NCBI RefSeq assembly: GCF_046105845.1
Contig: NZ_CP151004.1
Strand: one strand, 5' to 3'
DNA from: Escherichia coli
GTDB lineage: Bacteria; Pseudomonadota; Gammaproteobacteria; Enterobacterales; Enterobacteriaceae
DNA length: 64,000 nucleotides
Below are positions 55,101 to 61,100 of this stretch, in pieces; the first letter of the stretch is position 1; each line of letters starts with the position of its first letter. Made by a program: the position numbers.

Positions 55101-58100
55101 TGGAATCAATGACGCGAAATATCGTCCGGGAGAATTTCGTGAAACAGATGATGTTGTGATCGCCGACTATGACGGCAATATTGTGCACCAACCGCCCGCT
55201 GCGGCATTGTTGCCGGAACGGCTGGAAAAAGTTTGCCAGTGGTTAAACAGCCATGAAGGGTATATTCACCCGTTAATCCGTGCCTGCATTCTGCATTTTA
55301 TGCTGGCCCATGAACATCCATTTCGCGATGGCAACGGGCGCACCAGTCGGGCACTGTTTTACTGGTATATGCTGAAATCGGGCTACGATGTTTTTAAATA
55401 TATTTCCATCAGCCGTTTTCTTCATGCTGCGCCAGTCAAATATGCTGCCAGCTACCAGTACACTGAATCAGACGGTATGGATCTGACTTATTTCCTTGAG
55501 TATCAGGCGGGTGTCATTAAACGTGCTTTGCAAAACTGGCAGCAGCATATTGATGAAATTATGCAACGAAGTGCAAAACTCGATAGTGTGCTGTTTAGCT
55601 CTGGTGTGCTTAAACGCCTGAATCCGCGCCAGGTAACGCTCCTGAATGTGATGCTCGCCAATCCGGGGAAAGAGTACACAGTTGCTGAAATTAGCGCGAG
55701 CCTGGGCGTCTCTGATAATACGGCTCGAGCTGATTTACGGACAATTGTTAAAGAAGGGTTTGCGCAAGAGAAAAGAATTAATAACCAGCAAGCAGTGTAC
55801 GTCGCACACTACCCGCTGTAGCTTTTGCCCGTAAATTCGTGATAGCCGTCGTAAAGCTGTTACCGACTGGCGAAGATTTCGCCAGCCACGTCTACCCTTG
55901 TTATACCTCACACCGCAAGGAGACGATCATGACCAATAATCCCCCTTCAGCACAGATTAAGCCCGGCGAGTATGGTTTTCCTCTTAAGTTAAAAGCCCGT
56001 TATGACAACTTTATTGGCGGCGAATGGGTAGCCCCTGCCGATGGTGAGTATTACCAGAACCTGACGCCGGTGACCGGGCAGCTGCTGTGCGAAGTGGCGT
56101 CTTCGGGCAAACGAGACATCGATCTGGCGCTGGATGCTGCGCACAAAGTGAAAGATAAATGGGCGCATACCTCGGTACAGGATCGCGCGGCGATTCTATT
56201 CAAGATTGCCGATCGGATGGAGCAGAACCTCGAACTGTTGGCGACGGCAGAAACCTGGGATAACGGCAAACCCATTCGCGAAACCAGTGCTGCCGACGTG
56301 CCGCTGGCGATTGACCATTTCCGCTATTTTGCCTCGTGTATTCGGGCGCAGGAAGGCGGGATCAGTGAAGTCGATAGCGAAACCGTGGCCTATCATTTCC
56401 ACGAACCATTAGGCGTGGTGGGGCAGATTATCCCGTGGAACTTCCCGCTGCTGATGGCGAGCTGGAAAATGGCCCCTGCGCTGGCGGCGGGCAACTGCGT
56501 GGTGCTGAAACCCGCACGGCTTACCCCGCTTTCTGTACTGCTGCTAATGGAAATCGTCGGTGATTTACTGCCGCCGGGCGTGGTGAACGTGGTCAACGGC
56601 GCGGGTGGGGAAATTGGCGAATATCTGGCGACCTCGAAACGTATCGCCAAAGTGGCGTTTACCGGCTCAACGGAAGTGGGCCAACAAATTATGCAGTACG
56701 CCACGCAAAACATTATTCCGGTAACCCTGGAGCTGGGCGGCAAGTCGCCAAATATCTTCTTTGCTGACGTGATGGATGAAGAAGATGCCTTTTTCGATAA
56801 AGCGCTGGAAGGCTTTGCACTGTTTGCCTTTAACCAGGGCGAAGTTTGCACCTGTCCAAGCCGTGCTTTAGTGCAGGAGTCTATCTACGAACGCTTTATG
56901 GAACGCGCCATCCGCCGTGTCGAAAGCATTCGTAGCGGTAACCCGCTCGACAGCGTGACGCAAATGGGCGCGCAGGTATCTCACGGGCAACTGGAAACCA
57001 TCCTCAATTACATTGATATCGGCAAAAAAGAGGGCGCAGATGTGCTTACCGGCGGGCGGCGCAAGCTGCTGGAAGGCGAACTGAAAGACGGCTACTACCT
57101 CGAACCGACGATTTTGTTTGGTCAGAACAATATGCGCGTGTTCCAGGAGGAGATTTTTGGCCCGGTGCTGGCGGTAACCACCTTCAAAACGATGGACGAG
57201 GCGCTGGAGCTGGCGAATGACACGCAATATGGCCTGGGCGCGGGCGTCTGGAGCCGCAACGGTAATCTGGCCTATAAGATGGGGCGCGGCATTCAGGCCG
57301 GGCGCGTGTGGACCAACTGTTATCACGCTTACCCGGCACATGCGGCGTTTGGCGGCTACAAACAATCAGGTATCGGACGCGAAACCCATAAGATGATGCT
57401 TGAGCATTACCAGCAAACCAAGTGCCTGCTGGTGAGCTACTCGGATAAACCGTTGGGGCTGTTCTGATATAAGAAGCTGGTCGCATTGGGTATTCATTGC
57501 CTGATGCGACGTTTGCGCGTTTTATCAATTCAAATGTCTACGTCTTGAATGACTGAATATTGATTGAACTTAATTACGAGTCTCCTCGCATATTTTCTAC
57601 CAATTACTGCACACCGTTATTCTTCTTCCGAGTGGCATTCCTGAGTCAACTTTATCCCCCTGACGGCCCATATAAATCGCGCTATCGTGATTGTTATCGC
57701 TAATTGTGTGTGTATCGTGTGTATAATCATGGAAGGGCAGGGATGTGAAAAGTGCAGACGTGATCGCCATCCTGAAGCAGCATGGCTGGGAACATATTCG
57801 AACCCGTGGCAGTCATCATCAGTTCCGCCACCCTGTTCATCCGGGTCTGGTGACGGTTCCGCACCCTAAAAAAGATATTAAGCCCGGTACGCTGGCGCAA
57901 ATTGGGCGTCAGGCTGGTTTAACATTTTAAAATTTCAGGAGGCAATATGTTTTATCCCGCCTATATCCACAGTGATCCTGACGGCAGCGCCAGCGGTTTT
58001 TTCCCTGATGTTCCAGGCTGTTATTTTGCTGGTGATACGCTGGACAACGCTTTCCAGGATGCGCGAAGTGCACTGGTCGCGCACTTCGAAACCTTATGCG

Positions 58101-61100
58101 AGATGAATGAAGAGTTGCCGCTTCCAGGCTCTGTGGAAACACATCTGGTCCAGCGTGCGCAGGACTTTATTGGCGGGCAATGGTTGCTGGTGGATATCAA
58201 TATGAATCAATTCGAAGGTCGGGCTGAACGTATCAATATTACGATGCCAAAAAGATTACTGAACAAGATTGATACCTACGTGCGCAATAACCCAGACTAT
58301 GCCAACAGAAGTGCGTTTCTGGCGGAAGCTGCCCGGCGTGTATTGCCGGGCGTTTAATCTCGCGTTTCGATGGTTGGCGGGCAACCGCACCGATATGTTG
58401 ATACTGATAAGACGCGTTAAGCGTCGCATCATGCGCTGGTTTCCTCATTCACCCAGATCCGCATTTCGCCTTCACCCCGGTTGGCCCAGCTAAACCACGG
58501 GATAAAGGTCAGGGTTTGCGGCTGGCGTTTGGCTGGCGCACTGTCGTAATGCCACAGCGGTTGTTGTTCTGGATTGCTCTGTTCATACCGGTAACCCGGT
58601 GCCTGGATTAAGATCTTATGGCTGAACAATCCCTTACCTTCAAATGTCGTAAATGGCGCATCGGCGGGCAGCCACAGATTATGCAGTGACTCGCCGTTGT
58701 CGGCCTGTTCCAGGCAATACACCAGCGGGCCGCGCTGAATCGCCACTTTTCCGGCGACGTGACGCACCAGCGGGTTACCGTAAACGCGGCGTACCGGCAT
58801 CGGCAAAGTCAGATTCAGCGTATCGCCCTCCTGCCATTCGCAGGTAATGTGCAAATACCCTTTACGAATATCCTGCTCGACCTCTTCCCCATTCAATATG
58901 ATCTGCGGCTGTGTGCACCAGTCCGGCAGACGTAAAGCCAGCGTATGACGCACCGGCTGGGGCGATTCAACCGCAATTGTCACCTGTTCCTGCCACGGAT
59001 AGTTTCCGCTAACCCGCAGACGCAGCGTGCCATTTTCTACCGGCACTTCCATGCTGTTTCCTGCGTAGATGTTGATATACAACGCATCTTCACGCGGCGT
59101 GTAGAGATAATGACCAATCGAGGTTAGCACGCGGGCGATATTTGGCGGACAACAAGCGCAACCAAACCAACGCTGGCGGATCGGCTTAACGTGATCGTAG
59201 ATATGGTTGAATTTTAACGTTTTTGGATGCACTTCCAGCGGATTAACGTAGAAGAAATGTTTGCCATCCAGCGCCATGCCGCCGAGCACGGTGTTGTACA
59301 GTGCGCGCTCCATCACATCGGCATATTGACTGTCGCCTTCCATTTCCAGCATTCGCCGGGCGAACATCATCAGGCCGATGGAAGCACAGCTTTCGGCGTA
59401 TACCGTGTCATTCGGCAGATCGTAATCGCTGCTGAACGCTTCGCCGCTGCTTTGTGAGCCAATGCCGCCGGTAATATATAACTGACGCTGGGCCATATTG
59501 TTCCACAGCCGCAGGCAGTCCTGACGCTTGCTTTCATCGTGACTTAAACGCGCGAGATGCGCGACACCGGTCATCAGATATACAAAGCGTACTGCATGTC
59601 CGATGGCGGTTTGTTGCTGTGCGATGGGCAAATGCGCCTGGCTGTAGGCTTTATCTTTCACCATCCACGCCGGGCCGTAGGTGTGCCAGTGCGAGGTCTG
59701 CCCGCGCTTTTCATATTCCTGGTCGTAATAGTGCGGTTGCGCACCACGCTGTTCGACAAAATAGTTCGTCAGCGCCAGGTAGCGCGGCTCTTCGGTCACT
59801 TCATACAGGCGCATTAGTGCCAGTTCAATTTCCGGGTGACCAGGATAACCGTGTAACTTACTTTCACCTGGACCAAATACGCTGTCGATATGATCGGCCA
59901 GACGGCAAACCACTTCCAGCAAGCGCCGCTTGCCCGTGGCCTGGAGGAAGGCGACTCCGGCTTCAATCAGATGACCGGCGCAGTAAAGTTCATGACACTC
60001 CGCCAGATTGCTCCAGCGTTCTTCGGGCGCTTTTACCGTAAAGTAAGTATTGAGATAGCCATCTTCGCACTGGGCGGAAGCGACCAGTTCGATTACCTCG
60101 TCAGCGGTTTTTTCCAGTTCGGCATCCGGCTTCTGGCACAGCGACCAGGCTACCGCTTCCAGCCATTTGGCGACGTCGCTGTCCTGAAACACCATCCCGT
60201 AAAATTCACCGTCTTGCAGTCCTGCGGCAATGCGAAAGTTTTCAATCGCATGGCTGGGTTCCGCTTCTGGGATACGATCGTTCAAGGCATCCCACTGATA
60301 AGGAATCACCACGTCGCGGACCAGTTGTTGGTACTGACCGAGGAACGGATCGCTGACCGTCAGTTTATGCAGATCGACTTCCGAAATGTTCATCTTGTGC
60401 TCCTTAAGGCTGTACATGACGCTGACGCAGGTCGCTAGCTATGCGTGACATCATAGGGTTATTGAGTTTGCAAAAGCGGATCGCCATCGCCAGCAGCAGG
60501 TGGAATAGCGCAGGCAGCAATGTTTCCATCGCCGCGATCCCGCCAAGCGAACTGGCGGTCTGGTTTTCCACGCCTGGCTGGTAGGCGACAAAAATAAACA
60601 GCAGGCTGATGATCCCGGCGCTGGAGGCCCAGGCCAGCTTGATGAAAAACAGATTGAAGGCGAAGTTCATGCCGGAAGAACGTACGCGGGTTTTCCACTC
60701 GCCGTAGTCATCGGCAAAGGCCATCAATGAGAAGTGCAGTGGCAATGTGAAGCCAAGAATCACGCCATTACCGAGGATCACCGCCAGCCACAGCGTTTGA
60801 TAAGCCGGGCCGGAGGGCAGGAACCACATCAACACCGCCAGCGCGGCGAGGAGCAGGTTGGTGTAGTAGTAAATTTTGACGGTATCGAAACGCCGCGTTA
60901 ACGGGCTGACAATCACCGAGCCGATAATGGAGGCGAAGGTGACCATGGTGAAGAACAGCGACGTGTAGCCCGTACTGCCTTGTAAGACGTAGGTAATGAA
61001 GTACATATACCCACCGCCGCGAATATTAAAGACGTTAATCAGCAGGAAAGACATGACCAGCATCAGCAGCAGTTGGTCGTTGTTCCGCAGCCCGGCAAGA

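What the first reader, a model, noticed from the sequence alone, without database searches (positions are those of the whole stretch)
57680..58357. HicA/HicB toxin-antitoxin pair immediately downstream of aldB
Directly seen: a 61-aa HicA-like ORF followed after 16 bp by a 136-aa HicB-like ORF with an RHH-type C-terminus (toxin first, the usual hicAB order). Upstream there is a TATAAT at 57722-57727 and TATCGTG direct repeats at 57683-57689 and 57713-57719 that could be operator sites. This is not the K-12 hicAB locus (from memory), so it is an additional, diverged TA module.
Basis: partly seen in the sequence, partly recalled or inferred. Interest (0 to 1): 0.5.

Follow-up and report, generated by a model that had tools for sequence, protein, structure and literature searches.

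The report
Second HicAB toxin-antitoxin pair beside aldB
This is an ordinary, already annotated HicA/HicB toxin-antitoxin gene pair of the ribbon-helix-helix type, an old chromosomal resident of enterobacteria that about 9% of complete E. coli genomes keep and that K-12 has mostly deleted.

Summary
hicA is 57745-57930 (GTG start, 61 aa). After a 16-nt spacer comes hicB, 57947-58357 (136 aa). Both match Pfam strongly (HicA_toxin 2e-23; HicB_lk_antitox 9e-36). The closest solved structures are the Burkholderia pseudomallei HicAB and Yersinia pestis HicA3B3 systems, whose HicB has a ribbon-helix-helix (RHH) DNA-binding domain. HicA keeps the residues shown to matter for toxicity, Gly22 and His24. 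RefSeq names the identical proteins as HicA and HicB family members in 505 of 5426 complete E. coli genomes.

It is not the K-12 hicAB. That pair has an HTH-type HicB, lies elsewhere and is present in 5349 genomes. The pair here is a second module, and an old one: it sits between aldB and a GH127 gene in at least eight enterobacterial genera. It evolves under strong purifying selection (dN/dS about 0.05-0.15). K-12 still carries a relic of the hicB 3' end.

The TATCGTG repeats exist, but they are not the conserved unit. The footprint shows two direct TGTGTAT heptads overlapping the -10 and an upstream box, GCGCTAnnGTGAT.

Verdict: a known kind and already annotated, though this pair has not been tested experimentally. 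Interest is low.

The parts
57480..57510 (+). REP-like hairpin just after the aldB stop. Sequence shared with K-12 ends at about 57527, which marks the left edge of the stretch K-12 lacks.
   Evidence: Inverted repeat I2, 7/7 complementary. K-12 and about 3400 other genomes match only the first 58 nt after aldB. Alignment.
57679..57691 (+). Candidate roles: a second HicB operator, a CRP half-site (TGTGA), or the -10 (TATCGT) of an upstream promoter.
   Evidence: 13-16 of 16 sequences conserved at most positions, in an otherwise diverged spacer.
57709..57715 (+). Heptad 1, TGTGTAT. Proposed HicB (RHH) half-site.
   Evidence: 14-16 of 16 conserved. The GTGTAT/ATACAC hexamer occurs about 100 times more often upstream of hicA homologues than elsewhere in the same loci. 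It appears in inverted orientation in a Massilia homologue.
57718..57724 (+). Heptad 2, TGTGTAT. It starts 9 nt after heptad 1 and overlaps the -10 hexamer.
   Evidence: 15-16 of 16 conserved. The pattern TGTGTATNNTGTGTATAAT is unique in the window, with 0.11 matches expected.
57722..57727 (+). TATAAT, the probable -10 hexamer of the hicAB promoter. There is no recognisable -35.
   Evidence: Present as stated. 14-16 of 16 conserved across genera. The consensus promoter scan reports no full sigma-70 site because the -35 is poor.
57731..57736 (+). GGAAGG, a Shine-Dalgarno-like element for hicA, 8 nt before the GTG start. A transcript started from the TATAAT would begin inside or next to it.
   Evidence: Sequence. 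10-14 of 16 conserved. The start-site position is inferred, not measured.
57745..57930 (+). hicA: 61-aa HicA-family toxin with a GTG start that is conserved across genera. It keeps Gly22-Ser23-His24.
   Evidence: Pfam PF07927, 2.1e-23. B. pseudomallei HicA 4c26/6g26, E 1e-16. Same CDS as WP_000833473.1. dN/dS 0.05-0.15.
57937..57942 (+). AGGAGG, a strong Shine-Dalgarno sequence for hicB inside the 16-nt spacer.
   Evidence: Sequence.
57947..58357 (+). hicB: 136-aa antitoxin. Residues 1-90 form the N-terminal HicB (partial RNase H) domain. Residues about 93-132 form the C-terminal ribbon-helix-helix, with strand AERINITM and helices 102-114 and 121-132.
   Evidence: Pfam PF15919, 9.1e-36 over residues 3-129. 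Sequence matches to 6g1n (3e-25) and 4p78 (2e-21). AF2 model with pLDDT 87. Best folds 6g26, 4p7d and 6g1n. 100% identical to WP_000499744.1.
58330..58352 (+). GC-rich hairpin at the very end of hicB with a poor T-tract. Possible weak terminator, facing the convergent GH127 gene, which ends at 58429.
   Evidence: Terminator-like site found by the scan, but the count equals the number expected from shuffles.

Best explanation
This is an intact type II toxin-antitoxin operon of the HicAB family. It belongs to the subclass whose antitoxin has a C-terminal ribbon-helix-helix domain, 'Class 4' in Gerdes 2024.

Inferred from characterised relatives:
- HicA is a small dsRBD-fold, ribosome-independent mRNA-cleaving toxin that uses His24.
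- HicB binds and blocks HicA with its N-terminal domain.
- HicB assembles through its RHH domains into a DNA-binding tetramer and represses its own promoter.

Inferred here from phylogenetic footprinting:
- The operator is a pair of direct TGTGTAT heptads (57709-57715 and 57718-57724) that overlap the conserved TATAAT -10.
- Bound HicB would therefore occlude RNA polymerase.
- Excess HicA would be expected to release HicB from DNA, as in B. pseudomallei and Y. pestis.

Toxin output is probably kept below antitoxin output. hicA has a GTG start and a weak Shine-Dalgarno element, while hicB has ATG and AGGAGG.

The pair is an old chromosomal resident of the aldB-GH127 interval in Enterobacteriaceae. 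It is retained in about 9% of complete E. coli genomes and was deleted in K-12.
For: Family identity:
- Pfam matches and PHROG toxin and HicB-like families.
- Solved relatives: BpsHicA at E 1e-16 and about 53% identity over 59 aa; BpsHicB at 3e-25; YpHicB3 at 2e-21, over nearly the full length including the RHH.
- An AF2 model (pLDDT 87) has the fold order beta-beta-beta-alpha-alpha-beta followed by two C-terminal helices. Its best PDB matches are 6g26, 4p7d and 6g1n.

Active-site residues: Gly22 and His24, shown to be needed for toxicity in BpsHicA (PMC3969222), are present, along with L10, W15, P39, P41, D44 and G48 at the same numbering.

Selection: dN/dS is 0.05-0.15 for both genes against 15 orthologues.

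Annotation: RefSeq names the identical proteins as HicA and HicB family members.

Operator and promoter:
- 16 promoters from different genera keep GTGTGTATnnTGTGTATAAT and the RHH strand RAERINIT almost invariant while the surrounding spacer diverges.
- Distant homologues carry the same half-site around their -10 in other arrangements. Massilia has GTGTGTATAATACACAC, Avibacterium TATAATACACAC and Janthinobacterium TATCGTGTGTATAATAC.
- The hexamer occurs at 20.6 per kb upstream of hicA against 0.21 per kb elsewhere in the loci.
- An operator overlapping the -10 is what was found experimentally for YpHicB3 (site BS2) and BpsHicB (review PMC11594946).
Against: - Nothing here tests toxicity, neutralisation or DNA binding. 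All mechanism steps are inferred by homology.
- No NCBIfam model names either protein, and no PADLOC model hits.
- The consensus scan finds no complete sigma-70 promoter, because the -35 is poor.
- The enterobacterial promoters are related by descent, so their conservation is not 16 independent observations.
- Direct-repeat heptads differ from the palindromic operators reported for relatives.
- In some relatives hicA has decayed while hicB persists (L005 frameshift, L006 absent, L013 partial, L014 H24P). The toxin is therefore dispensable in some lineages.
Confidence: 0.85

Rival explanations
1. The operator is what the first reader proposed. The two TATCGTG direct repeats, 30 nt apart, are the HicB binding units.
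For: Both copies exist and lie 30 nt (about three helical turns) apart. Each lies inside a conserved block. A Janthinobacterium homologue also has TATCGTGTGTATAAT.
Against: - Positions 3-5 of the heptamer are not conserved in the same way in the two copies. In Box 1 the pattern is TAnnGTG, in Box 2 it is TATnnTG, and the central C and G are kept in 8 of 16 sequences or fewer.
- The two copies do not co-vary between genera.
- The heptamer is not enriched in the window.
- The second copy merely spans the junction of the two TGTGTAT heptads.
Confidence: 0.12
2. Dual-promoter control, as in K-12 hicAB. Box 1 would not be a HicB operator. It would be either a CRP or CRP-S half-site for the TATAAT promoter (CGTGA-N6-TCGCT, centred about -41), or the -10 (TATCGT, with CTGACG as the -35 at a 17-nt spacing) of an upstream promoter that makes the only transcript able to translate hicA. 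The TATAAT promoter would then start inside the hicA Shine-Dalgarno element and yield mainly HicB. This does not exclude the main explanation.
For: - TGTGAT is kept in 14-16 of 16 promoters.
- Its centre falls about 41 nt upstream of the start site predicted from the -10, and the -35 hexamer is missing, as at class II CRP promoters (positions inferred).
- T57683, A57684 and T57688 are invariant, and the upstream CTG (57660-57662) is kept in 11-16 of 16. This fits a -10/-35 pair.
- The K-12 hicAB P1 promoter is CRP-Sxy dependent and its P2 promoter makes HicB only. A CRP site was also predicted at the B. pseudomallei promoter (PMC11594946).
Against: - The second CRP half-site is not conserved between genera.
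- A 7-of-10 match to the CRP core is expected by chance about once in a few hundred nucleotides (my estimate).
- The conserved GCGC upstream of TGTGA is not explained by CRP.
- The candidate upstream promoter scores only 8 of 12 and was not reported by the scan.
- There are no transcript data.
Confidence: 0.3
3. The pair in this genome is a disarmed relic. HicA would no longer be toxic or no longer expressed, and HicB would survive only as a small regulator.
For: The module has been deleted or eroded repeatedly. K-12, E. whittamii and Escherichia sp. MOD1 keep only the hicB 3' end. Several relatives have lost or damaged hicA while hicB is intact.
Against: - In the window both ORFs are full length.
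- hicA is 100% identical in nucleotides to the copy in other E. coli.
- Gly22 and His24 and all other family-conserved residues are intact.
- dN/dS for hicA is as low as for hicB.
- The promoter, the GTG start and the Shine-Dalgarno elements are conserved.
Confidence: 0.07
4. The physiological role is abortive-infection phage defence rather than stress response, persistence or addiction. This concerns the role only; the molecular mechanism would be unchanged.
For: HicA and HicB relatives are carried by phages such as HP1, HP2 and Pseudomonas phi3, and by many conjugative plasmids. Gerdes 2024 argues for a defence role on the basis of genetic contexts (PMC10865869).
Against: - No PADLOC model matches.
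- The neighbours are metabolic genes (aldB, GH127, an MFS transporter, an AraC regulator), not a defence island.
- Long-term synteny contrasts with the high turnover typical of defence genes.
Confidence: 0.2

Closest known systems
Burkholderia pseudomallei HicAB (BPSS0390/0391; PDB 4c26, 6g1n, 6g26)
   Same: - Toxin-first operon.
- HicA about 53% identical over 59 aa, with Gly22 and His24 at the same positions.
- HicB about 35% identical over its full length, with the same N-terminal domain plus C-terminal RHH.
- The operator is reported to overlap the -10 and a predicted CRP site.
   Different: - Different phylum-level host.
- Here the candidate operator is two direct heptads rather than a single palindrome.
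- This pair has not been tested experimentally.
Yersinia pestis HicA3-HicB3 (PDB 4p78, 4p7d)
   Same: - RHH-type HicB, about 35% identical.
- Two operator sites flank the promoter, the main one over the -10. This resembles Box 1 plus Box 2 here.
   Different: - Y. pestis has a 174-nt hicA-hicB spacer, against 16 nt here.
- HicA3 is only distantly similar (E 1e-4).
- Its sites BS1 and BS2 are 15-bp inverted repeats.
E. coli K-12 HicAB (b4532/b1438; PDB 6hpb)
   Same: Same family, same gene order, same host species. HicB N-terminal domain 33% identical over 66 aa.
   Different: - K-12 HicB ends in an HTH domain, not an RHH.
- K-12 HicA is not detectably similar by BLASTP.
- The locus is different, between yncJ and ydcR.
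- The K-12 type is present in 5349 of 5426 genomes, against 505 for this pair.
Class 4 hicAB operons of Gerdes 2024 (mBio, PMC10865869)
   Same: This pair fits the definition exactly: hicA first, and HicB with a C-terminal RHH DNA-binding domain. Genes are closely linked in 41% of members.
   Different: None found. This is a member of the class.

Membership tests
HicA toxin family (Pfam PF07927) | Significant match to the family profile over the whole domain | tested here: met
   E 2.1e-23, residues 4-59 against model positions 2-58 of 58. PHROG 353 'toxin' at 9e-23.
HicA toxin family (Pfam PF07927) | Small (about 60 aa) dsRBD-like protein homologous to solved HicA structures | tested here: met
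   61 aa. Full-length alignment to 4c26/6g26 at E about 1e-16; also matches 9svk, 4p78_C and 1whz. The fold itself was not modelled here.
HicA toxin family (Pfam PF07927) | Catalytic His (His24 in BpsHicA) and Gly22 in the beta1-beta2 loop | tested here: met
   G22-S23-H24 are present and align to the mutated position of 4c26. They are conserved in 14 of 15 orthologues. Their functional importance is shown in PMC3969222.
HicA toxin family (Pfam PF07927) | mRNA cleavage and growth arrest on expression | not testable with these tools
   Needs expression in vivo or an RNase assay.
HicB antitoxin, RHH subclass (Pfam PF15919; Class 4 hicAB) | N-terminal HicB (partial RNase H) domain | tested here: met
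   PF15919 at 9.1e-36. The AF2 model's N-terminal domain superposes on 6g1c and 4p78_A at rmsd 2.0-2.5 A with target-normalised TM 0.78-0.86.
HicB antitoxin, RHH subclass (Pfam PF15919; Class 4 hicAB) | C-terminal ribbon-helix-helix DNA-binding domain | tested here: met
   The sequence aligns through the RHH of BpsHicB (to residue 131) and YpHicB3 (to residue 132). The model has an extended segment at 93-100 followed by helices 102-114 and 121-132. The full-length best folds are RHH HicBs. The monomer model cannot show the dimeric ribbon.
HicB antitoxin, RHH subclass (Pfam PF15919; Class 4 hicAB) | Operon with hicA upstream of a closely linked hicB | tested here: met
   Same strand, 16-nt spacer, order conserved in all orthologous loci.
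HicB antitoxin, RHH subclass (Pfam PF15919; Class 4 hicAB) | HicB binds an operator in its own promoter and represses it | tested here: inconclusive
   Conserved TGTGTAT heptads overlap a conserved -10, and the half-site recurs in distant homologues. This is consistent with an operator, but binding was not measured.
HicB antitoxin, RHH subclass (Pfam PF15919; Class 4 hicAB) | HicB neutralises HicA by direct binding | not testable with these tools
   Needs co-expression rescue or a pull-down. No complex was modelled.
E. coli K-12-type HicAB (HTH HicB; Class 3) | C-terminal helix-turn-helix domain in HicB, and HicA similar to K-12 HicA | tested here: not met
   K-12 HicB aligns only over residues 1-66. 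K-12 HicA gives E 0.011 in a two-sequence BLASTP.

The most novel reading that the evidence does not exclude
This HicAB may not behave as a mobile selfish module. It may instead be a long-term, vertically inherited resident of one chromosomal interval (aldB-hicAB-GH127-MFS-AraC) across many enterobacterial genera, with two unusual features. First, its operator is built from direct heptads (TGTGTAT) rather than a palindrome. Second, its conserved -10 would start transcription inside the hicA ribosome-binding site. The autoregulated promoter would then make mostly antitoxin, and toxin synthesis would need a separate, possibly CRP-dependent, upstream input. That would be the K-12 P1/P2 logic re-created in an unrelated HicAB subclass.
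Probability: 0.2. Interest if true: 0.35.

Novelty: already known. Interest (0 to 1): 0.15.

Why it matters
It matters little for discovery. The pair is a textbook member of a well-described toxin-antitoxin subclass, and RefSeq already names it in hundreds of genomes.

Three modest points of value remain.
- It documents that E. coli has two unrelated HicAB subclasses (HTH and RHH). The RHH one appears never to have been tested in E. coli.
- It shows that the module is ancestral to the aldB-GH127 interval and has been eroded repeatedly, including in K-12. This is a tidy example of a chromosomal toxin-antitoxin pair decaying.

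Tried and rejected
- NCBIfam and PADLOC profile scans of both proteins gave no hits, so no curated equivalog or defence-system assignment is available.
- The consensus promoter scan found no full sigma-70 promoter in 57400-58500. It found one terminator-like hairpin, no more than the shuffles give.
- The Rfam search of 57400-58500 found nothing above threshold. Only a sub-threshold REP-like naRNA4 fragment and a chance HgcE match appeared.
- RNA folding of the putative leader plus hicA was no more stable than shuffled sequence (z = +0.87). There is therefore no evidence for a structured leader or an internal terminator of the kind described for an IncI2-plasmid hicAB.
- I looked for GTGTAT/ATACAC half-sites near the promoters of the neighbouring GH127, MFS and AraC genes and found none. 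There is no hint that HicB regulates its neighbours.
- I could not read the primary papers on the Y. pestis and B. pseudomallei operators because they are not held. One guessed PMC id returned an unrelated paper. The operator comparison therefore rests on the 2024 review.
- Literature searches for this particular pair, by RefSeq accession and by hicAB plus aldB or phylogroup, found no experimental study.
- A palindrome reading of Box 1 (ATCGCGCTATCGTGAT, 6 of 8 pairs in E. coli) was rejected because most of the symmetric positions are not conserved between genera.

Full report
**1. The observation**

- A 61-codon ORF with a GTG start lies at 57745-57930.
- A 16-nt spacer follows, carrying AGGAGG at 57937-57942.
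- A 136-codon ORF with an ATG start lies at 57947-58357.
- TATAAT is at 57722-57727.
- TATCGTG is at 57683-57689 and 57713-57719. The repeat finder extends these to a 16-nt, 75%-identical direct repeat 30 nt apart.
- The aldB stop ends at 57467, so hicA begins 277 nt downstream.

**2. What the two ORFs are**

Profile matches:
- The first ORF matches Pfam HicA_toxin end to end (E 2.1e-23).
- The second matches HicB_lk_antitox over residues 3-129 (E 9.1e-36).
- PHROGs gives 'toxin' and 'toxin-antitoxin system HicB-like' families.

Solved structures:
- HicA is closest to Burkholderia pseudomallei HicA (4c26/6g26, E about 1e-16, roughly 53% identity over 59 residues).
- HicB is closest to B. pseudomallei HicB (6g1n, 3e-25) and Yersinia pestis HicB3 (4p78/4p7d, 2e-21). 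Both alignments run through the C-terminal domain.
- An AlphaFold model built on 19 homologues (pLDDT 87) has the N-terminal beta-beta-beta-alpha-alpha-beta domain, then an extended segment at 93-100 and two helices at 102-114 and 121-132.
- Its best PDB matches are the full-length RHH-type HicBs 6g26, 4p7d and 6g1n. The K-12 HicB (6hpb) matches only over about 88 columns.

HicA carries L10, G14, W15, G22, S23, H24, P39, P41, D44, G48, I53 and A57 at the same numbering as BpsHicA. In that protein G22C and H24A abolish toxicity (PMC3969222; alignments).

**3. Is it already known?**

Yes, at the level of annotation.
- The 961-nt stretch is found at 97-99.4% identity and at least 80% coverage in 505 of 5426 complete E. 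coli genomes.
- PGAP annotates the same two CDSs there as 'type II toxin-antitoxin system HicA family toxin' (WP_000833473.1) and 'HicB family antitoxin' (WP_000499744.1 or WP_000499742.1).
- The window's hicA is 100% identical in nucleotides to those copies, and its HicB is 100% identical to WP_000499744.1.
- In the scheme of Gerdes 2024 it is a Class 4 hicAB: hicA first, and HicB with an RHH domain (PMC10865869).
- I found no paper that studies this particular pair.

**4. Relation to the K-12 hicAB**

- K-12 hicA/hicB lie between yncJ and ydcR.
- K-12 HicA shows no significant similarity to the protein here (E 0.011 in a two-sequence comparison).
- K-12 HicB aligns only over its first 66 residues at 33% identity. 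It ends in an HTH domain (PMC11594946).
- The K-12-type locus is present in 5349 of 5426 genomes. Genomes with the aldB-linked pair therefore generally have both.

**5. Context and history**

In E. coli strains that have the pair, the order is yiaY-(Fic)-aldB-hicA-hicB-GH127-MFS-AraC-sgbE.

The same order, aldB-(variable insert)-hicAB-GH127-MFS-AraC, holds in Enterobacter, Lelliottia, Yokenella, Citrobacter, Pseudocitrobacter, Trabulsiella, Pluralibacter and Phytobacter. HicB is 74-86% identical there. The neighbouring GH127 is 80-85% identical and the MFS transporter 82-89%. HicB therefore diverges at about the same rate as its neighbours.

Both genes are under strong purifying selection. dN/dS is 0.05-0.15 wherever dS is not saturated.

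Close relatives are chromosomal. Plasmid and phage relatives are all below 60% identity.

K-12 shares only the 58 nt after the aldB stop, a REP-like hairpin. It then has REP sequence, and then a recognisable relic of the last 80 nt or so of hicB (82% identity to 58274-58386). Further on come a GH127 3' fragment and an AraC 3' fragment flanking yiaW-yiaT. E. whittamii and another Escherichia species carry the same hicB relic.

The module is therefore ancestral to this interval and was lost in K-12. It was not gained here.

Erosion is common. hicA is frameshifted in L005, absent in L006, partial in L013 and H24P in L014, while hicB stays intact in each.

**6. Promoter and operator**

I aligned the 170 nt upstream of hicA from 16 non-redundant loci. 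Most of the spacer has diverged, but several blocks stand out.
- GTGTGTATnnTGTGTATAAT (57708-57727) is kept in 14-16 of 16 sequences. The exception is the two 'nn' positions, kept in 8 of 16.
- G-C-G-c-T-A-n-n-G-T-G-A-T (57679-57691) is kept in 13-16 of 16 at most positions.
- A GGAAGG Shine-Dalgarno-like element and the GTG start are conserved.
- Smaller blocks lie at 57638-57643 (TTCCTG) and 57660-57662 (CTG).

The TATAAT is therefore very probably the real -10. There is no conserved -35, and the consensus scan reports no complete promoter.

Their middle bases are the unconserved ones, and the two copies do not co-vary, so the heptamer is not the functional unit.

The repeated conserved unit is TGTGTAT, present twice (57709-57715 and 57718-57724, starts 9 nt apart). 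The second copy overlaps the -10.

More distant homologues carry the same half-site around their own -10 in other arrangements.
- Massilia: GTGTGTATAATACACAC, an inverted pair.
- Avibacterium: TATAATACACAC.
- Janthinobacterium: TATCGTGTGTATAATAC.

The GTGTAT/ATACAC hexamer occurs at 20.6 per kb in the 80 nt upstream of hicA, against 0.21 per kb in the rest of the same loci.

The RHH strand RAERINIT is invariant across the enterobacterial orthologues.

For the characterised relatives, the main operator also overlaps the -10. This holds for Y. pestis BS2 and the B. pseudomallei S1-S2 site (PMC11594946).

I therefore propose that HicB represses by binding the heptads over the -10. This is inferred, not shown.

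**7. Box 1 and a possible second input**

Box 1 could be any of three things.
- A second HicB site, by analogy with Y. pestis BS1.
- A CRP-type half-site. TGTGAT is conserved, and in the window CGTGA-N6-TCGCT is centred about 41 nt upstream of the start site predicted from the -10. This fits a class II arrangement and the missing -35.
- The -10 (TATCGT) of an upstream promoter whose -35 would be CTGACG (57660-57665) at a 17-nt spacing.

The second CRP half-site is not conserved, and neither candidate passes simple significance tests.

A start site about 7 nt after the TATAAT (57733-57736) would fall inside the GGAAGG element. That would leave hicA with almost no leader. This recalls K-12 P2, which yields HicB only. 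I give this about a 0.3 chance as a reading. It needs transcript mapping.

**8. Other checks**

- No Rfam family matches.
- There is no unusual RNA structure in the leader or hicA.
- No heptad sites lie near the neighbours' promoters.
- PADLOC gives no hits.

**9. Verdict**

The finding is real and correctly interpreted in essentials. It is an ordinary, already annotated Class 4 (RHH) HicAB toxin-antitoxin pair.

This work adds three things.
- A corrected operator model.
- Evidence that the pair is an old syntenic resident rather than a recent import.
- The hicB relic in K-12.

Interest is low, at 0.15.

Noticed in passing
L032 7149-7250 (E. coli K-12), equivalent to window 58274-58386; also L029 and L030: K-12 keeps a relic of the last 80 nt or so of this hicB just downstream of aldB. 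It also keeps a GH127 3' fragment and an AraC 3' fragment on either side of yiaW-yiaT. The aldB-linked hicAB was therefore deleted in K-12 rather than gained here.
   Followed up: yes
window 51730-52884 and 53245-54396: Two tandem yiaY-like (iron alcohol or threonine dehydrogenase) genes. They are 81% identical to each other in DNA and only 82-84% identical to E. coli yiaY. None of the 5426 complete E. coli genomes matches this stretch above 90%, although the flanking selB, aldB and sgbE are 96-98% identical.
   Followed up: partly
window 54526-55821: A 431-aa Fic family protein gene lies between yiaY and aldB. It is present in some E. coli (L002, L003) and absent in others (L001, K-12), so it is another variable insert in this interval.
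   Followed up: no
window 57638-57643 and 57660-57662: Small conserved blocks (TTCCTG; CTG) lie 80-100 nt upstream of hicA in an otherwise diverged spacer, kept across genera. They are unexplained. The CTG could belong to the -35 of an upstream promoter.
   Followed up: partly
L005, L006, L013, L014, L028: The module has eroded repeatedly in relatives. hicA is frameshifted in Escherichia sp. E1V33, absent in an Enterobacter MAG, partial in another, and H24P in E. chuandaensis, while hicB stays intact in each. In Lelliottia nimipressuralis hicB itself is broken.
   Followed up: partly
L002 7264-8343 (E. coli strain 20); L012 and other Enterobacter loci between aldB and hicA: In some genomes a gene annotated 'type I restriction endonuclease', or about 2 kb of other DNA, sits between aldB and the hicAB promoter region. 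Homology with the window resumes at about 57572.
   Followed up: no
L004 (contig JAIJJM010000854.1, labelled Collinsella sp. MAG): This 1.2-kb contig is 97-99% identical at the protein level to the E. coli aldB end, hicAB and GH127 end. It is almost certainly an Escherichia fragment mis-binned into an actinobacterial MAG.
   Followed up: no
window 55839-57467: The mechanical ORF list gives aldB a 542-aa GTG-start ORF. RefSeq annotates a 512-aa AldB, corresponding to a start at 55929.
   Followed up: no
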